From contig CAWKFB010000006.1 of assembly GCA_963848835.1 (NCBI GenBank), positions 180,279 to 244,278 of the forward strand: DNA of 64,000 nucleotides, read 5' to 3'. Source of the stretch: Candidatus Aminicenantes bacterium. Its GTDB lineage: Bacteria; Acidobacteriota; Aminicenantia; Aminicenantales; UBA4085. The first letter of the stretch is position 1, and each line of letters begins with the position of its first letter. The translations under genes and the position numbers were made by a program. The notes under the pieces were generated by a model. The model did no database searches. It worked only from the letters and a program-made list of their open reading frames with translations, and had not been told where the DNA came from. Shown in pieces: positions 9,806 through 61,538 of the stretch.

Positions 9806-9873
9806 GCCGCGTATTCTAGACGATTTCTGTCCGTCGGCAAAGCATACGAAGGAAGGCGGGGCTCCCGGGGTTT

Positions 9874-9923
9874 CGGCAAGGGCGGTCTCGCTCGGCGGGA
9901 AATCCTGACGCTCTGCCTGTCAT
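9874..9923 (+). repeat. repeat module X, copy 1
   Basis: 50 nt matching 53213-53262 with one mismatch. The last 44 nt (GGGCGGTCTCGCTCGGCGGGAAATCCTGACGCTCTGCCTGTCAT) are identical. Confidence 0.85.
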
Positions 9924-9944
9924 TCGAGCTCCTAGGATCGCTCC

Positions 9945-10034
9945 GGGATTGCCCCACGCTCACGTTGGAACCCTTCTGGTTCCCCCCGAATTAGGCGGGG
10001 CCCCCCCTCCTGATGTTCGCTTTGGGGCAATCCC
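9945..10034 (+). repeat. repeat module W, full copy (hairpin-closed, about 90 nt)
   Basis: 12-bp closing helix 9945-9956 / 10023-10034. Inner hairpins GGAACC-CTTCT-GGTTCC (9967-9983) and CCCC-loop-GGGG (9984-10000). Near-identical inverted copy at 53820-53912, with partial copies at 53745-53800 and 39119-39180. Confidence 0.8.
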
Positions 10035-10274
10035 TTCGCTCTCTGAGTCTTCCGTATTTTATGCTTGCAACTGGTCACGTGCTCAAACATTCTCGCGGCG
10101 CCGCTACGCGGGGCTACCCGTCGGAGCTCGGGACGCAGAGCTGGGATTTCCCGATGTCGCTCGAGCCGCCCTCGCCTCTCCGCAAGCTCGCCCTTACGCG
10201 GCTTGTACGTTGGCGCACCGGATCATCCCAAGATGCGTGGGCATGCCGAGCGGACGACTCGGACGATGAAAATC

Positions 10275-10355
10275 GGGACGCTCCCAGGACTCATATAAAT
10301 CATCTACCCCACCTGCCGCCCCTAGAACTCGGGGCGGACTGTCGGTAAGCGTCCC
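10275..10355 (+). repeat. repeat module U, copy 1 (candidate structured RNA/ssDNA element)
   Basis: Closing helix GGGACGCT (10275-10282) / AGCGTCCC (10348-10355). A/T box TCATATAAATCATCTAC. Inner hairpin CCGCCCC-TAGAACTC-GGGGCGG (10316-10337), followed by ACTG..GGTA. Confidence 0.75.
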
Positions 10356-10383
10356 TCCCAGCATGTCGCTCATCAGGGTGACG

Positions 10384-10490
10384 CAGCGAATCGGCCAAGT
10401 CTGTCCGCGGCAGGATTCTCGATCGCCGCCGTAAGATGATTGGGTCGCATGCGTCTGATATTCGGGGCGCGAGGGGGGCTCCCTGAGCGG
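10384..10490 (+). repeat. repeat module Z, copy 1
   Basis: Homologous to the reverse complement of 53316-53415. Shared blocks are GCGAATCGGCC..GTCCGCGGCAGGATTC and GCGTCTGATATTCGGGGCGCGAGGGGGGCTCCCTGAGCG. Confidence 0.7.
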
Positions 10491-10510
10491 GCCAGCGCAG
10501 CGAGCTTACC

Positions 10511-10594
10511 GGGACGCCTTCAAAACTCTCATGCATATTTATCTCTCTCTCCTACCTCTCCCAAGACTAGGAGAGGACTGCTGGTAGGCGTCCC
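10511..10594 (+). repeat. repeat module U, copy 2
   Basis: Closing helix GGGACGCCT (10511-10519) / AGGCGTCCC (10586-10594). A/T box ATGCATATTTATCTC. Inner hairpin CCTCTCC-CAAGACTA-GGAGAGG (10555-10576), followed by ACTG..GGTA. Confidence 0.75.
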
Positions 10595-10741
10595 TCCTAG
10601 TTGAATGGAGTCGAGCGAGAGCGAGCGAGCACGGGGAGCGGATTTTTCTCGCTGGGGAAAATCCGCGTCCCGATCAGGGAGTCCCCCGGGAGCCCCGTCG
10701 GATTCACAAGGTATTCCGGTACGTGCTAACGTTAGCGAGGA

Positions 10742-17051: not shown

Positions 17052-17137
17052 GCCGGAGTGGCGGAACTGGCAGACGCGCGGGACTCAAAATCCCGTCCGG
17101 GGCAACTCGGGTGTGGGTTCGATTCCCTCCTCCGGCA
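17052..17137 (+). tRNA. tRNA-Leu (anticodon CAA)
   Basis: 7-bp acceptor stem GCCGGAG/CTCCGGC with discriminator A. D-arm GCGGAACTGGCAGACGC. Anticodon stem-loop CGGGA-CTCAAAA-TCCCG. Long variable arm. T-arm GGGTTCGATTCCC. No encoded CCA. Confidence 0.9.
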
Positions 17138-39025: not shown

Positions 39026-39118
39026 GGCCGTATCTTCGCATTGTCGTTCGGGGCCCGTCAACCCAATCGAGCGCCCACGATAATGGATTGTGGGCTCCCG
39101 GTGAAGAGGGTCAAGGGG

Positions 39119-39180
39119 AGCGAACATCACGGAAGGGGGGCCCCTTTGGGGGGAACCGGGACGGGTTCCCCCGTGAGCGT
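39119..39180 (-). repeat. repeat module W, partial copy without closing helix
   Basis: GCGAACATCACGGAAGGGGGGCCCC..GGGGGGAACC-GGGACG-GGTTCC..CGTGAGCG aligns with 53832-53898 and with the reverse complement of 9956-10020. Indels relative to the other copies break any common reading frame. Confidence 0.65.
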
Positions 39181-39290
39181 TGAGTCATCCCGTAGCTCTC
39201 CTTGTTTGACCCGGTTCATCATGATATTCTGAAACTCCAAAAATGGGACCGATCATCGGCATTTTCCCGCTCTTCGCCCAGGAGGCCGAC

Positions 39291-53648: not shown

Positions 53649-53731
53649 CCCGAAGCGCCCCCCGAATTTCTTTATTGATATTCTCCTCCCTGCCCCCCAA
53701 CTAACATGGGGGGATTCGTCGGCGCTTCGGG
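53649..53731 (+). repeat. repeat module V (U-like unit with a different closing helix)
   Basis: CCCGAAGCGCC (53649-53659) / GGCGCTTCGGG (53721-53731), plus CGAAT/ATTCG. A/T box TTTATTGATATTCTCC. Hairpin CCCCCC-AACTAACAT-GGGGGG. Related copies at 37809-37969 and 23080-23125. Confidence 0.7.
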
Positions 53732-53744
53732 AAAGGAACGAACC

Positions 53745-53800
53745 CGCGCTTCGCGGAGGGAACCCGCTCGGATTCCCCTTGTGAGCATTGGGGCAATTCT
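53745..53800 (-). repeat. repeat module W, second degenerate copy
   Basis: Minus strand reads AATTGCCCCAATGCTCAC-AAG-GGGAATCC-GAGC-GGGTTCCC-TCCGCGAAGCG, which parallels the 5' half of W. Confidence 0.5.
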
Positions 53801-53819
53801 GAAAAACTCTCCGGGCGGA

Positions 53820-53912
53820 GGGATTGCCCATAAAGCGAACATCAGGAGGGGGGGCCCCGCCTAATTCGGGGGGGAACCAGGAGGGTTCCAACGTGAGCTT
53901 ATGGGCAATCCC
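53820..53912 (-). repeat. repeat module W, full copy (inverted relative to 9945-10034)
   Basis: Closing helix GGGATTGCCCAT/ATGGGCAATCCC. Hairpins GGAACC-CTCCT-GGTTCC and CCCC-GAATTAGGC-GGGG. The tail CCTCCTGATGTTCGCTTT is conserved. Confidence 0.8.
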
Positions 53913-53978
53913 GAAGCCGTTTGACTTGGACCCTACGGGTTCATATCATACGTCCGGCTCGAAAAGGAGAATCCATCC

Positions 53979-55241
53979 ATGATCCACAGCCCGCTGAAGA
54001 TGATCGCGCTCATGACCCTTGCCGCGGCCTCGGTACTCGCCCTGGGCGCCGCGGCCCAGGACGCGGCCGGCGACCCGACCCTCCGTCTCAAGCTCGGCGA
54101 TCCGCGCTTCAAGGACAAGACCCTCGATATCCCCGCCGACAGTCTCGTTTCGGTCGAGACGGGGAAGCCGGTGCCCTTCGCCAAGATGATCGAGGAGATG
54201 AAAGCGGCCCGGATCATCCACGTCGGCGAGACCCATAACTCCAAGCCCATCCACGATTTCCAGGCCCGAATCATCCGGGCCCTGTACGCACAGGACCGCG
54301 GCCTCGTCATCGGCCTGGAGATGTTCCCGGCGACGATGCAGGACGTCCTCAACAGGTGGAGCCTGGGCATCCTGTCCGAGGAGGAGTTCATCCGAGAAGC
54401 CCGCTGGTACGTCACCTGGAACTTCAACTTCGGCTTCTACCGCGACGTCTTCGTCTTCGCCAAGGAGAACCGCATCCCGATCTACGGCTTGAACGCTCCG
54501 CGGGAGATCATCACCAAGATCCGGATGAAGGGCTGGGACTCTCTGACGGACGAGGAAAAGGCCCTTGTCCCGAAGCCCGACCTGACCCACGCCGAGCACC
54601 GGGAGCTCATGAAGCAGATCTTCGGCGGCGCGGAGATGCCCCACGCCATGGCAGGAGCTGGCGGCGCGGAGGCGATGTTCGAGGGCCTCTACCGGGCCCA
54701 ATCGGCTTGGGACGAGGTCATGGGCTCGAACGCCGCCGCGATCACCGAGCGGGAGCGGAAGAAGATGGTCGTCCTGGTGGGGTCCGGGCACCTGATCTAC
54801 AACCTCGGCCTCAACCGGCGGGCGTACGAGAAGAGCAAGCTGCCCTTCAAGACGGTCATCGGCGTGTTCGTCGACAAGAGTAAGACGGTCGAAACCGTCG
54901 CCCGTAGCCTGGGGGATTATCTCTTCGGCATCGCCGAGGAAGCGCGGCCGGCGTATCCCTCGATCGGGATCGGATTCAAGAAGGTCAAAGACCTCGACAA
55001 CCTCTTCGTCGAGACGAAGCCCATCGATGGCGTCGCGAGGGGCCAGGACATCGAAAAGGGAGACATCGTCCTGACCGTGGACGGCCGGACTTGGACGGAC
55101 GCGAACGAGCTCCGGACTTATCTGGCCGCCCTTCCTTGGGACGGAGAAGTCAAGCTCCACATCCTGCGCGCGGGCGTGGAGAAGGACGTGACGCTCAAGA
55201 TCACGATGAGCCCGCCCCCTCCGCCGCCGGCGAAAAAGTGA
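53979..55241 (+). CDS. ChaN-like (haem-binding uptake/Tiki superfamily) protein with C-terminal PDZ domain
   Basis: Signal peptide. IIHVGETHNS and VLVGSGHLIYNLGL are typical of the ChaN family. PDZ-like IGIGFKK...GDIVLTVDG. Proline-rich tail PPPPPPAKK. Confidence 0.65.
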   Translation: MIHSPLKMIALMTLAAASVLALGAAAQDAAGDPTLRLKLGDPRFKDKTLDIPADSLVSVETGKPVPFAKMIEEMKAARIIHVGETHNSKPIHDFQARIIRALYAQDRGLVIGLEMFPATMQDVLNRWSLGILSEEEFIREARWYVTWNFNFGFYRDVFVFAKENRIPIYGLNAPREIITKIRMKGWDSLTDEEKALVPKPDLTHAEHRELMKQIFGGAEMPHAMAGAGGAEAMFEGLYRAQSAWDEVMGSNAAAITERERKKMVVLVGSGHLIYNLGLNRRAYEKSKLPFKTVIGVFVDKSKTVETVARSLGDYLFGIAEEARPAYPSIGIGFKKVKDLDNLFVETKPIDGVARGQDIEKGDIVLTVDGRTWTDANELRTYLAALPWDGEVKLHILRAGVEKDVTLKITMSPPPPPPAKK

Positions 55242-58987: not shown

Positions 58988-61538
58988 ATGCTGGAATCGT
59001 ACCGGAAGAATGAGGAAGAACGGCGCGCTCTGGGCATCCCACCCCTGCCCTTGAGCCCCGAAGAGACGGCCGAGGTCTGCCGGCTCCTCGAAGCCCCGCC
59101 GCCGGGCGTGGGACCGGATCTCCTCGCCCTCCTCCGCGACCGGGTTTCGCCGGGGGTGGATCCCGCGGCCAAGGTCAAAGCGGAATGGCTCGCCCGCGTC
59201 GCTTCGGGCTCGGTCTCTTCGCCGGCCCTTTCCCGGTCCGAAGCCGTCGCCCTCCTGGGCACGATGCTCGGCGGCTACAACGTCGCTCCGCTCGTCGGCT
59301 TGCTCGACGATCCCCAGCTCGGTTCCGAGGCCGCCCGTGCCCTCGGCCGGACCGTTCTCGTCTATGGCGCTTTCGACAAGGTCGCCGACATGGCGGCTTC
59401 GCACCAGAACGCCAAGGCCGTCATGCGCGCCTGGTCCGAGGGGGAGTGGTTCCTGTCGCGTCCGCCCCTGCCGGAGAGCGCGACCCTGACCGTTTTTCGC
59501 GTCGACGGAGAGATCAACACCGACGACTTTCTCTCCGGCAAAGCAAGCTTCGACGCGGCCCGACATTCCGCTCCACGCCCTGTCGATGGGACAGACGCGC
59601 TTCCCCGGCGGTCTCGCGGCGATCGCGGGCTTCAGAGCCGCGGGCAAGCGCGTAGTCTTCGTCGGCGACGTGGTCGGCACCGGCTCGTCCCGGAAATCGG
59701 CCTGCAACTCGGTTATGTGGCACATCGGCGAGGACATTCCCTTCGTCCCCAACAAGCGCCGCGGCGGGATCGTCCTGGGCGGGAAGATCGCCCCGATCTT
59801 CTTCAACACCACGGAGGACTCCGGCGGGCTGCCGATCGGAGAGGTCGACGTGAACGGGATGAAAATGGGAGATGAGATCGTCTTGGACCTCAAAGCCGGG
59901 GTCATCCGCGGCGCGGGCGGAAAGGTGTTATCACACTTCAGCCTCAAACCGGCCACGCTCCCCGACGAGTTCCGAGCCGGCGGCCGATTGAACTTCATCA
60001 TCGGCCGGGCCTTGACCAACAAGGCGCGAGCCCGTCTGGGGCTTCCCGAAGCCGAATTCTTCACCCGCGTTGAAAACCCAAAACCCAAGCCGGCTCAGGC
60101 GTATTCGCTGGCCCAGAAGATCGTCGGCCGGGCCTGCGGCCTCCCCGGCGTCCTGCCCGGGACGGCATGCGAGCCGAAGATGACCACGGTCGGGTCCCAG
60201 GACACGACCGGGCCCATGACCGCCGACGAGCTCAAGGAGCTGGCCTGCCTGGAGTTCCAGTGCGGCCTGTTCATGCAGTCGTTCTGCCACACCGCCGCCT
60301 ATCCCAAGCCCGCCGACGTGAAGATGCACCGAACCCTGCCGGGTTTCATGATCGAGCGGAAGGGCGTGGCCCTCAATCCCGGCGACGGCGTCATCCATTC
60401 CTGGCTCAACCGCCTGCTCCTGCCCGACACGATGGGCACGGGCGGCGATTCGCACACCCGATTCCCGATCGGCCTCAGCCTGCCGGCCGGGTCCGGCCTC
60501 GTCGCCTTCGCCGGAGCGCTCGGGTTCATGCCGCTCGACATGTACGAGTCCGTCCTCGTCCGCTTTCGCGGGACTCGCCGGCCCGGGATCACCCTCCGCG
60601 ACGTCGTCAACGCCATTCCCTATTTCGCCATCAAGGAAGGGCTCCTGACCGTGGCCAAGAAGGGCAAGAAGAACGTCTTCAATGATCGGATCCTCGAGAT
60701 CGAAGGGCTGGACGATCTGACCGTGGACCAGGCCTACGAGCTGACCGACGCCTCCGCCGAGCGCTCGGCGGCCGGAAGCGTCATCGCCCTCAAGGTCGAA
60801 GCCGGTGGCCCGTTTCCTCCGGAGCAACGCCGCCCTGATGAAGAAGATGATCGAGGCCGGCTACCGGGACGCAGAGACGCTCAAGCGCCGGATCGACGCC
60901 TGCGAGGCCTGGCTGGCCAAGCCGTCCATGATCGAACGGGACGCCAAAGCTGAATATGCCGCCGTCCTCGAGATCGACCTGGCACGATATCCGCGAGCCG
61001 ATCCTGGCCTGCCCGAACGATCCCGACGACGTCAAGCTCCTGTCGGACGTCGCCGGCGACCGCATCGACGAAGCCTTCATCGGCTCCTGCATGGTCAACA
61101 TCGGCCATTTCCGGGCCGCCGGCCGCATCTTCGACAAGGCGCCGCTATCCCGAAGACGCGGATCTGGATCACGCCGCCGACGAAGATGGATGATGATCCA
61201 GCTCAAGAAAGAAGGATATTATTCGATCTTCTCCCAGGTCGGGGCGCGGACGGAGATCCCCGGCTGTTCGCTCTGCATGGGCAACCAGGCCCGCGTCGCA
61301 GCCCGGCGCGACCATCATCTCGACCTCGACGCGCAATTTCGACGACCGGATGGGGGACGGGGCGCGGGTCTACCTCGGCTCGGCCGAGCTCACCGCCCTC
61401 GCGGCCCTGAAGGGCCGGCTGCCCGCGGCCGAAGAGTACTTCACGGTCATGAAGGAAAAGGTCCTCCCCGCCGCGGCCGACATCTATCGCTACCTTCAGT
61501 TCGACGAAATGAAGGATTTCACTCTGATCTATGCCTGA
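58988..61538 (+). pseudogene. acnB: aconitate hydratase 2 / 2-methylisocitrate dehydratase, six frameshifts
   Basis: Collinear with E. coli AcnB from MLESYRK to the C-terminus ([103 protein letters not shown]). Shifts near 59530, 60801, 60985, 61141 (-1), 61190 and 61300. Length check: 2551 nt minus 5 plus 1 gives 2547 nt. Confidence 0.85.

What the first reader, a model, noticed from the sequence alone, without database searches (positions are those of the whole stretch)
9945..10034. Module W: ~90-nt unit whose 12-bp closing helix carries two compensatory pair changes between copies
The closing helix differs between the two full copies.

- **Copy A (9945-10034):** GGGATTGCCCCA ... TGGGGCAATCCC.
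- **Copy B (53820-53912, minus):** GGGATTGCCCAT ... ATGGGCAATCCC.

Position 11 changes from C:G to A:T, and position 12 from A:T to T:A, so pairing is kept. Inside the unit, GGAACC-loop-GGTTCC is retained in all three copies with different loops (CTTCT, CTCCT, CGTCCC). A CCCC-loop-GGGG hairpin varies in loop length (GAATTAGGC against AAA in the 39119-39180 copy). The indels destroy any shared reading frame, so conservation is at the nucleic-acid level.
Basis: seen in the sequence. Interest (0 to 1): 0.6.

Follow-up and report, generated by a model that had tools for sequence, protein, structure and literature searches.

The report
Mobile hairpin repeat family in Aminicenantes
Module W is one of about 100 copies of a small hairpin-folding DNA repeat that fills the gaps between genes of an uncultured sediment bacterium; its matched stem changes are real, but they look like the signature of selfish repeat DNA, not of a new RNA gene.

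Summary
The window's own partial genome (2.6 Mb) holds 83-109 W copies. In the closing helix, 11 of 19 pairs show changes on both sides (0 of 500 shuffles reach this).

The evidence favours a dispersed, fast-turning-over palindromic DNA repeat (MITE/REPIN/BIME-like) over an RNA gene:
- Copies lie between genes in every orientation.
- Stem mismatches show no strand bias (16 G:T against 19 A:C).
- Copy number is patchy between genera (0 to 83).
- Strains 89-97% identical in a flanking protein differ in presence, orientation and core type at the same junctions.
- The same arm variants occur with different cores, and nine copies share an identical 64-nt core while arms differ, so modules are reshuffled.

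W is a local derivative of a wider undescribed family. A conserved three-way-junction core (GGAACC..GGTTCC, a variable hairpin, CCCCCCTCC) sits in a 201-bp element with 18-bp terminal inverted repeats in another Aminicenantes genome, in both orientations. That family has no Rfam match and no literature hit.

No partner transposase and no target duplication were found. W's 5' end sits 0-6 nt after stop codons, or 3-7 nt from -35 boxes.

The parts
9940..9944 (+).
   Evidence: More than 90% conserved in 60 copies; coordinates.
9945..9956 (+). Copy A: 5' arm of the closing helix (GGGATTGCCCCA)
9958..9963 (+). Copy A: invariant GCTCAC; it faces GTTCGC across a TC/TC internal loop
   Evidence: Invariant in 60 of 60 copies. 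In other genera it reads GCTCGC/GCTCGC or GCCCCC/GGGGGC.
9967..9983 (+). Copy A: hairpin 1, GGAACC-CTTCT-GGTTCC
   Evidence: conserved across genera.
9984..10000 (+). Copy A: hairpin 2, CCCC-GAATTAGGC-GGGG; the stem sequence differs between subtypes but still pairs
   Evidence: hairpin 2 covariation in the wider family.
10001..10020 (+). Copy A: C-rich strand CCCCCCCTCC followed by TGATGTTCGC (the GTTCGC part is invariant)
10023..10034 (+). Copy A: 3' arm of the closing helix (TGGGGCAATCCC)
10035..10039 (+). Copy A: 3' box (CC)TTCGC; the usual GGAGAG-TTTTT tail is degenerate in this copy
53820..53917 (-). Copy B: GCTTCG box plus full W with a 16-bp closing helix (core subtype A)
53781..53819 (-). 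Copy B tail: TCCGCCCGGAGAGTTTTTC, then the start of a second 5' arm (AGAATTGCCCCAATGCTCAC)
53692..53798 (-). Degenerate second W-like copy in tandem behind copy B
   Evidence: nhmmer hit C6:233970-234076; sequence.
53921..53949 (+). Promoter-like site (TTGACT, 17 nt, TATCAT) of the gene starting at 53979; its -35 box starts 3 nt after copy B's 5' box ends
39118..39196 (-). Third copy: 5' box and arm, GCTCAC, hairpin 1 (loop CGTCCC), hairpin 2 (loop AAA) and GTGATGTTCGC are present; the 3' arm is lost
9860..10700 (.). Repeat island that holds copy A: every stretch of the 936-bp divergent gap from 9860 on is repeated 9-128 times in the genome

Best explanation
**What it is.** Module W is a non-coding, non-autonomous palindromic DNA repeat of an uncultured Aminicenantes-type bacterium. 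It is akin to MITEs, REPINs and the mosaic BIME clusters.

**How it most likely works.**
- One strand folds into a T-shaped hairpin: a closing helix, an internal loop flanked by the invariant GCTCAC and GTTCGC, and two small hairpins.
- Inferred: this fold, in single-stranded DNA, is what an unidentified enzyme or the replication/repair machinery recognises when copies are made or converted.
- Only copies whose arms still pair are propagated, so arm variants always appear compensated.
- Copies also exchange modules with each other (cores against arms).
- Copies are gained, lost, replaced and flipped quickly in the few neutral bases between stop codons and promoters.

**Shown:** multicopy dispersal, covariation, module reshuffling, turnover between strains, patchy taxonomic spread, and kinship with a terminal-inverted-repeat element in other genomes.

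**Inferred:** the single-stranded DNA intermediate and the enzyme.
For: - **Copy number.** 109 nhmmer hits or 83 covariance-model hits in 2.6 Mb.
- **Location.** Copies are intergenic and occur in every orientation: 32 divergent, 26 convergent, 22 co-directional with W in the genes' orientation, 13 co-directional with W opposite to it.
- **Closing helix.** 11 of 19 pairs have changes on both sides; 0 of 500 shuffles reach this.
- **Strand symmetry.** Mismatches are 16 G:T against 19 A:C.
- **Arms against cores.** Within core type A, nine copies share an identical 64-nt core, yet the 21 type-A copies carry 18 different arm pairs. The same arm types occur with cores A, B and C.
- **Strain comparison at one gene.**
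  - A strain 97% identical in the protein has an unrelated 88-nt spacer where this genome has a 488-nt W array.
  - Two strains at 89% identity have a W at the same junction after the stop codon (one of them with the identical junction sequence), but with other cores.
  - On the promoter side, identical outer junctions hold W in the opposite orientation and of another subtype.
- **Patchiness.** 0 to 83 copies among 41 relatives, differing within genera. Only 7 of 401 genomes sampled from the phylum have a match, and every multicopy one lies in the same order.
- **Relatives.** In one complete genome the core sits in a 201-bp element with 18-bp terminal inverted repeats. It is found in both orientations relative to the asymmetric frame.
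- **Not a known or gene-linked element.** No Rfam family matches. No neighbouring gene recurs across 120 loci.
- **Precedent.** Compensatory hairpin changes are described as common in REPINs (PMC3116915).
Against: - **No partner enzyme.** The Y1 (RAYT-like) transposase in this genome is flanked by a different repeat that carries GTAG. W-like elements lie next to none of about 30 Y1 loci in relatives.
- **No target-site duplication.** The CTYCG boxes on the two sides do not co-vary. Nothing obvious flanks the 201-bp relatives.
- **No clean empty site.** Sites that lack W carry other sequence instead.
- **A functional signature.** The core sequence is strongly conserved inside different outer frames and in MAGs labelled as other phyla. 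This is also what a functional RNA or protein-binding module would show.
- **Placement.** The tight position next to stop codons (20 of 35 copies against 2.1 expected) could reflect a function in mRNA 3' ends.
Confidence: 0.65

Rival explanations
1. W acts mainly in RNA as part of mRNA 3' ends. Placed right after a stop codon, the long hairpin and the GGAGAG-TTTTT tail would end or stabilise the transcript, or stall terminating ribosomes, as has been reported for REP sequences close to stop codons in E. coli (own knowledge, not checked here). Mobility would only be the means of delivery.
For: - In 20 of 35 copies whose upstream gene reads into W, the stop codon lies 5-12 nt before the arm, that is 0-6 nt before the GCTCC box. 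Uniform placement predicts 2.1.
- A T-run follows the tail in about 70% of copies.
- Among copies between co-directional genes, 22 are in the genes' orientation and 13 are opposite.
Against: - 32 of 67 full copies have their 5' side facing a gene that reads away, often only 3-7 nt from its -35 box. There no 3'-end role is possible.
- The simple terminator scan does not call the tails.
- Wobble pairs show no strand preference.
- Orthologues without W have only 10-20 nt between the convergent stop codons, so any insertion there must abut a stop codon.
- A strain 97% identical does without W at the same site.
Confidence: 0.18
2. The three-way-junction core is a free-standing functional RNA (a small RNA, ribozyme or protein-binding RNA) present in many gene copies.
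For: - Junction sequences are invariant while helices co-vary.
- The core is conserved across genera and in MAGs labelled Methylomirabilota, Elusimicrobia and Omnitrophota.
- The C-rich CCCCCCUCC strand resembles an anti-Shine-Dalgarno motif (my reading of the sequence).
Against: - Upstream flanks are not conserved, so there is no shared promoter.
- Copies occur in all orientations and contexts.
- No Rfam match.
- 0 to 83 copies per genome, and absent from most relatives.
- Turnover between strains.
- No strand bias in wobble pairs.
- The core is found in both orientations within the same frame.
Confidence: 0.07
3. W copies are kept as chromosomal binding sites for a host DNA protein (nucleoid, gyrase or IHF-like), as proposed for BIMEs of enterobacteria. 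The conserved GCTCAC/GTTCGC loop and hairpin 1 would be the protein's site.
For: - Mosaic, BIME-like arrays of alternating arms and two kinds of linker.
- Invariant motifs inside variable helices.
- Even spread over all contigs.
Against: - Most genomes of the same family have none.
- Close strains differ at the same site.
- No candidate protein co-occurs.
Confidence: 0.08

Closest known systems
REPINs (REP doublets forming hairpins) mobilised by RAYT / TnpA-REP tyrosine transposases (Bertels & Rainey 2011, PMC3116915)
   Same: - About 100 intergenic copies per genome.
- Two inverted arms around a spacer, folding into a long hairpin.
- Compensatory changes across the hairpin are common.
- Copies occur in higher-order clusters.
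- Populations are lineage-specific.
   Different: - The arms have no GTAG or CGTC tag.
- Here the variable part is the arms and the conserved part is the spacer (core), the reverse of REPINs.
- The only RAYT-like gene with flanking repeats in this genome carries a different, GTAG-type REP.
- No RAYT locus in relatives is flanked by W.
Bacterial MITEs with structured interiors (Correia/NEMIS of Neisseria, ERIC, RUP, MITEAba12; own knowledge and PMC6382973)
   Same: - Small (about 100-200 bp), non-coding, with terminal inverted repeats.
- Dispersed between genes and differing between strains.
- They can sit next to promoters and gene ends.
- The relatives in another genome are 201 bp long with 18-bp terminal inverted repeats.
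   Different: - No target-site duplication and no parent insertion sequence were found.
- The arms of W vary by compensated changes instead of being a fixed transposase site.
- The same core occurs in unrelated outer frames.
BIMEs of enterobacteria and RIMEs of rhizobia (intergenic mosaic elements; own knowledge)
   Same: - Palindromic units in alternating orientation, joined by a small set of linker motifs.
- They are stacked into repeat-only islands between genes.
   Different: - The unit here is a branched, roughly 90-nt three-way junction, not a 35-nt stem-loop.
- No IHF- or gyrase-type partner is known.
T-shaped terminal hairpins with flip/flop orientation of parvovirus-type linear ssDNA replicons, processed by HUH nickases (own knowledge; analogy only)
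   Same: - A long closing helix holds two small internal palindromes.
- Both orientations of the interior occur relative to the outside (seen in the related 201-bp element).
- A conserved motif sits in the stem next to the junction.
   Different: - Chromosomal, dispersed, and not at the ends of a replicon.
- No nickase was linked to it.
- In this genome W itself has a fixed orientation relative to its tail.

Membership tests
REPIN / REP-RAYT system | REP unit of 20-40 nt with a conserved GTAG (or CGTC) tag at one end | tested here: not met
   The W arms read GGGATYGCCC and carry no GTAG or CGTC tag. A separate GTAG repeat (GGGGACGTAGCACTCATTCCCC) does exist in the genome.
REPIN / REP-RAYT system | Two inverted REPs around a spacer that fold into a hairpin, with compensatory changes | tested here: met
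   Closing helix of 12-16 bp; 11 of 19 pairs have changes on both sides. The literature statement is in PMC3116915.
REPIN / REP-RAYT system | A single-copy RAYT gene flanked by its own REPs | tested here: not met
   - The three PF01797 loci in the genome are not flanked by W.
- The covariance model finds no W-like element (best E-value 0.78) in 31 Y1 loci from this genome and relatives.
- Caveat: the genome is only 60% complete.
MITE | Terminal inverted repeats | tested here: met
   - W arms of 12-16 bp.
- Some composites end in GCTCCGGGAT...ATCCCGGAGC.
- The related 201-bp element has 18-bp terminal inverted repeats, CTAATGCAAACGCGATAA.
MITE | Target-site duplication flanking each copy | tested here: inconclusive
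   - The CTYCG boxes on both sides do not co-vary within copies.
- No direct repeat is evident beside 11 copies of the 201-bp relative.
- No clean empty site was available.
MITE | Small and without coding capacity | tested here: met
   95-107 nt in 12 length classes, so no common reading frame.
MITE | Presence/absence between close relatives | tested here: met
   A strain 97% identical in the flanking protein lacks the 488-nt W array. Other strains carry other cores or the opposite orientation at the same junctions.
MITE | A parent insertion sequence with the same ends | tested here: not met
   None was seen in the genome. No gene recurs next to 120 related loci. No match in the plasmid or phage collections.
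Known structured RNA family (Rfam 15) | A match to a curated covariance model | tested here: not met
   Only a tRNA passes in the window. The best hits on W have E-values above 2. None is found for the canonical relatives.
Independent RNA gene | Own promoter, fixed strand and evidence of expression | tested here: inconclusive
   - Upstream flanks are not conserved.
- No wobble-pair strand bias.
Intrinsic terminator | G+C-rich hairpin directly followed by a T-run, downstream of and co-oriented with genes | tested here: inconclusive
   - A T-run is present in about 70% of tails.
- Only 35 of 67 copies follow a co-oriented gene.
- The consensus scan does not call the tails.

The most novel reading that the evidence does not exclude
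The conserved three-way-junction core is a portable functional nucleic-acid module in its own right. The core comprises hairpin GGAACC..GGTTCC, a variable hairpin, CCCCCCTCC, and a stem with a fixed internal loop.

It could be the recognition and processing site of an unidentified single-strand DNA enzyme (rolling-hairpin or HUH-like), or a small catalytic or protein-binding RNA.

The module hitch-hikes in unrelated outer frames: W arms here, and a 201-bp element with terminal inverted repeats elsewhere. It flips orientation inside them, and it has spread among Aminicenantales and into MAGs labelled as other phyla.
Probability: 0.2. Interest if true: 0.75.

Novelty: new variant of a known kind. 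Interest (0 to 1): 0.45.

Why it matters
**A caution for RNA discovery.** Clean covariation among copies within one genome is not evidence for an RNA gene when the copies are palindromic repeats that reshuffle modules.

**An undescribed repeat family.** This abundant family occupies nearly all the gene-free DNA of an uncultured sediment lineage. It butts directly against stop codons and -35 boxes, so it probably shapes transcript ends and promoter spacing there.

**An open lead.** A sequence-conserved branched core recurs inside different mobile frames and in both orientations. That points to a mobilising or processing activity which, if found, would be new.

Tried and rejected
- **Hammerhead ribozyme.** W contains CUGAUG, but it is not conserved (the C subtype has CCAAUG). 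There is no GAAA and no Rfam hit.
- **Integron attC site.** GCCCAAC resembles the R'' box. However, copies are dispersed among syntenic housekeeping genes rather than in cassette arrays, and the 3' side lacks GTTRRRY.
- **Cores inserting into pre-existing empty hairpin frames.** The genome has no W-type arm pair with a short loop; 70 arm pairs enclose 56-85 nt.
- **Stop codon supplied by the element.** The stop codon is at the same position in orthologues without W.
- **Strand bias along a complete chromosome, as expected for IS200/IS605-type insertion.** The count is 15 forward and 14 reverse, intermixed.
- **Correlation with Y1 transposases.** 37 of 41 relatives have them regardless of W count.
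- **Transposase between split W halves.** The 1.1-kb stretch at C11:25760-26871 holds only more repeats. A loose scan for arm pairs gave only noise.
- **Exact-protein look-ups of two flanking genes.** Nothing was found.
- **Sequence strings in the literature.** No hit.

Full report
**1. The observation**

- Copy A (9945-10034, plus strand) closes with GGGATTGCCCCA/TGGGGCAATCCC.
- Copy B (53820-53912, minus strand) closes with GGGATTGCCCAT/ATGGGCAATCCC. Its helix in fact continues to 16 bp.
- The third copy (39118-39196) is on the minus strand and has lost its 3' arm.
- GGAACC-loop-GGTTCC occurs three times in the window against 0.07 expected.
- No Rfam family matches.

**2. A large family with strong covariation**

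The window lies in a 2.6-Mb, 23-contig, 64.5% G+C assembly that is about 60% complete.
- Iterated nhmmer finds 109 W hits, 67 of them full length. A covariance model built from 60 distinct copies finds 83.
- The conserved unit is longer than 90 nt. It runs GCTCC box, W, CTYCGC, cGGAGAG, TTTTTC, and then the start of a second 5' arm.
- The three main core subtypes (A, B and C) differ in both hairpins but keep pairing. GCTCAC and (A)TGTTCGC are invariant.
- In the closing helix, 11 of 19 pairs show changes on both sides in 78 cells. None of 500 shuffles reaches this, and slid structures collapse to 37-51% pairing.
- Lengths fall in 12 classes (95-107 nt), so no common protein frame exists.

**3. 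Why this is not evidence for an RNA gene**

- *No strand preference.* Mismatches in the helix are symmetric: 16 G:T against 19 A:C. Neither strand is favoured as an RNA.
- *Any orientation.* With my own rough gene calls, copies are intergenic. Of them, 32 lie between divergent genes and 26 between convergent genes. A further 22 lie between co-directional genes in the genes' orientation, and 13 in the opposite orientation.
- *No shared promoter.* The upstream flanks are not conserved.
- *Arms vary more than cores.* Within core type A, nine copies share an identical 64-nt core, yet the 21 type-A copies carry 18 different arm pairs.
- *Modules are reshuffled.* The same arm types (for example GGATTGCCCCAC and GGATCGCCCAAC) occur with cores A, B and C. 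Point mutation plus selection in place cannot give 0 of 64 changes in the core alongside several compensated pairs in 26 arm positions. Arms and cores must be reshuffled between copies.
- *Not insertion into empty frames.* Empty arm frames do not exist in the genome, so this is exchange among full copies.
- *Precedent in mobile DNA.* Compensatory changes across the hairpin are reported as common in REPINs (PMC3116915).

**4. Turnover between strains**

Using a lipoprotein gene flanked by W on both sides (C23:40726-41607), I fetched 80 related metagenome loci.

*Downstream, convergent side*
- This genome has a 488-nt array that starts TAA-GGC-GCTCCGGGATCGCCC.
- A strain with 97% protein identity has an unrelated 88-nt spacer instead, most of it a perfect hairpin.
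- Two strains at 89% identity have a W right behind the same stop codon. One of them shares the junction sequence TAA-GGC-GCTCCGG with this genome. Both carry other cores.
- More distant orthologues have only 10-20 nt between the two stop codons.

*Upstream, promoter side*
- This genome and the 97% strain share identical outer junctions: CCAAAAG|GCTCCGG ... CCGGAGC|T..TTTTGCAAAAAG.
- Between those junctions they hold W in opposite orientation and of a different subtype.

**5. Placement**

- In 20 of the 35 copies whose upstream gene reads into W, the stop codon lies 0-6 nt before the GCTCC box. Uniform placement predicts 2.1.
- Of the 32 copies whose 5' neighbour reads away, 9 have a promoter-like site. 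In 8 of those 9 the -35 box begins 3-7 nt from the box.
- Copy B is one such case: TTGACT at 53921.
- The stop codons and promoters are native, because they are conserved in orthologues without W.
- The simplest reading is that ancestral spacers were tiny, so any tolerated insertion abuts these signals.
- A role in mRNA 3' ends for the co-oriented subset cannot be excluded.

**6. Distribution and relatives**

*Among relatives*
- Among 41 relatives the model finds 0 to 83 copies, differing within genera (40, 30 and 1 in one genus; 8 and 0 in another).
- A core pattern matches only 7 of 401 genomes sampled across the phylum. All multicopy ones belong to the same order.
- The copies in other genera are a "canonical" form. 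It has a long co-varying outer helix, GCCCCC..GGGGGC in place of GCTCAC..GTTCGC, and GGAACCAGTCCCGNCGGTTCC. A variable hairpin 2 and CCCCCCTCCGCTAC follow.

*In public species genomes*
Most are from Candidatus Aminicenantes MAGs, but some MAGs are labelled Methylomirabilota, Elusimicrobia, Omnitrophota and others.
- Some of the odd labels are probably wrong. "Eubacteriales" and "Terriglobales" loci share 72-76% nucleotide identity with this genome over more than 5 kb.
- The same comparison supports the Aminicenantes placement that earlier notes gave.

*In one complete Aminicenantes chromosome*
- It carries 29 copies, 15 forward and 14 reverse, intermixed.
- The core lies in a 201-bp element with 18-bp terminal inverted repeats.
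- About 9 of 20 copies have one orientation of the core relative to the asymmetric frame, and about 7 have the other.

*Not previously catalogued*
- The canonical form has no Rfam match.
- The sequence strings have no literature hit.
- No listed paper combines Aminicenantes with MITE or REP terms.
- The canonical form has no match in the plasmid or phage collections.

**7. Search for a partner**

- The genome has three Y1 (PF01797) loci. One is a typical RAYT-like gene flanked by inverted GTAG-type REPs, a different family. None is flanked by W.
- Y1 genes occur in 37 of 41 relatives irrespective of W count. No W-like element lies in 31 Y1 loci.
- No protein family recurs next to the 120 related loci.
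- No target-site duplication was found.

**8. Verdict**

- W is a real, abundant, hairpin-folding DNA repeat. It is best filed as a new variant of the MITE/REPIN/BIME kind.
- Its compensated arm differences reflect a requirement for arm pairing plus module exchange, not the slow evolution of an RNA gene.
- The mechanism of spread is inferred, not shown.
- The conserved branched core that recurs in different frames and orientations is the part that remains strange.

Noticed in passing
L035 (G000:C7:59853-60179 and flanks 59362-59515, 60451-60520): A single-copy RAYT-like Y1 transposase gene (about 246 aa, with an HFHL motif). It is flanked on both sides by inverted copies of a different, GTAG-type REP (GGGGACGTAGCACTCATTCCCC) that has 17-32 copies in the genome. 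This is a textbook REP-RAYT system alongside the W family.
   Followed up: partly
window 9860-10700: The whole 936-bp divergent gap around copy A, from 9860 on, is built from at least five other repeat modules with 9-32 copies each. Almost no unique DNA lies between the two genes.
   Followed up: partly
L048:2126-2213: In a strain 97% identical in the flanking protein, the convergent spacer is mostly one perfect long hairpin (GGGGTCGCGTCTACACTTTCCACTTTT...AAAAGTGGAAAGTGTAGACGCGACCCC). It is unrelated to W and sits exactly where this genome has a 488-nt W array.
   Followed up: no
L277-L296 (G042, complete Aminicenantes chromosome): A 201-bp element with 18-bp terminal inverted repeats (CTAATGCAAACGCGATAA) carries the conserved three-way-junction core. 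The core plus inner stem occurs in both orientations relative to the asymmetric frame (about 9 against 7 of 20 copies).
   Followed up: partly
L140, L162, L195, L185, L138: Contigs from MAGs labelled 'uncultured Eubacteriales', 'Terriglobales' or 'Acidobacteria' share 70-76% nucleotide identity with this genome over 5-8 kb. Those taxonomic labels look wrong or very coarse, which shrinks the apparent cross-phylum spread of the element.
   Followed up: partly
L128, L132, L158, L184, L206, L213: Two Methylomirabilota-labelled MAGs carry their own multicopy subtype of the core (GGAACCCTCCCGTGGTTCC, with flanks GAATCAGAGTGACA...GTCCGGGTCCTG). If the binning is right, the element has crossed phyla.
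   Followed up: no
G000:C13:86953-87038 and C13:83293-83386: Variant copies in which the outer GCTCCGG box is mirrored directly as CCGGAGC, without the CTCCGCC insert. One of them has a fully palindromic interior (GCTCAC...GTGAGC), so it lacks the otherwise invariant TC/TC internal loop.
   Followed up: no
window 17052-17137: A tRNA gene: the only Rfam match in the window at gathering score.
   Followed up: no
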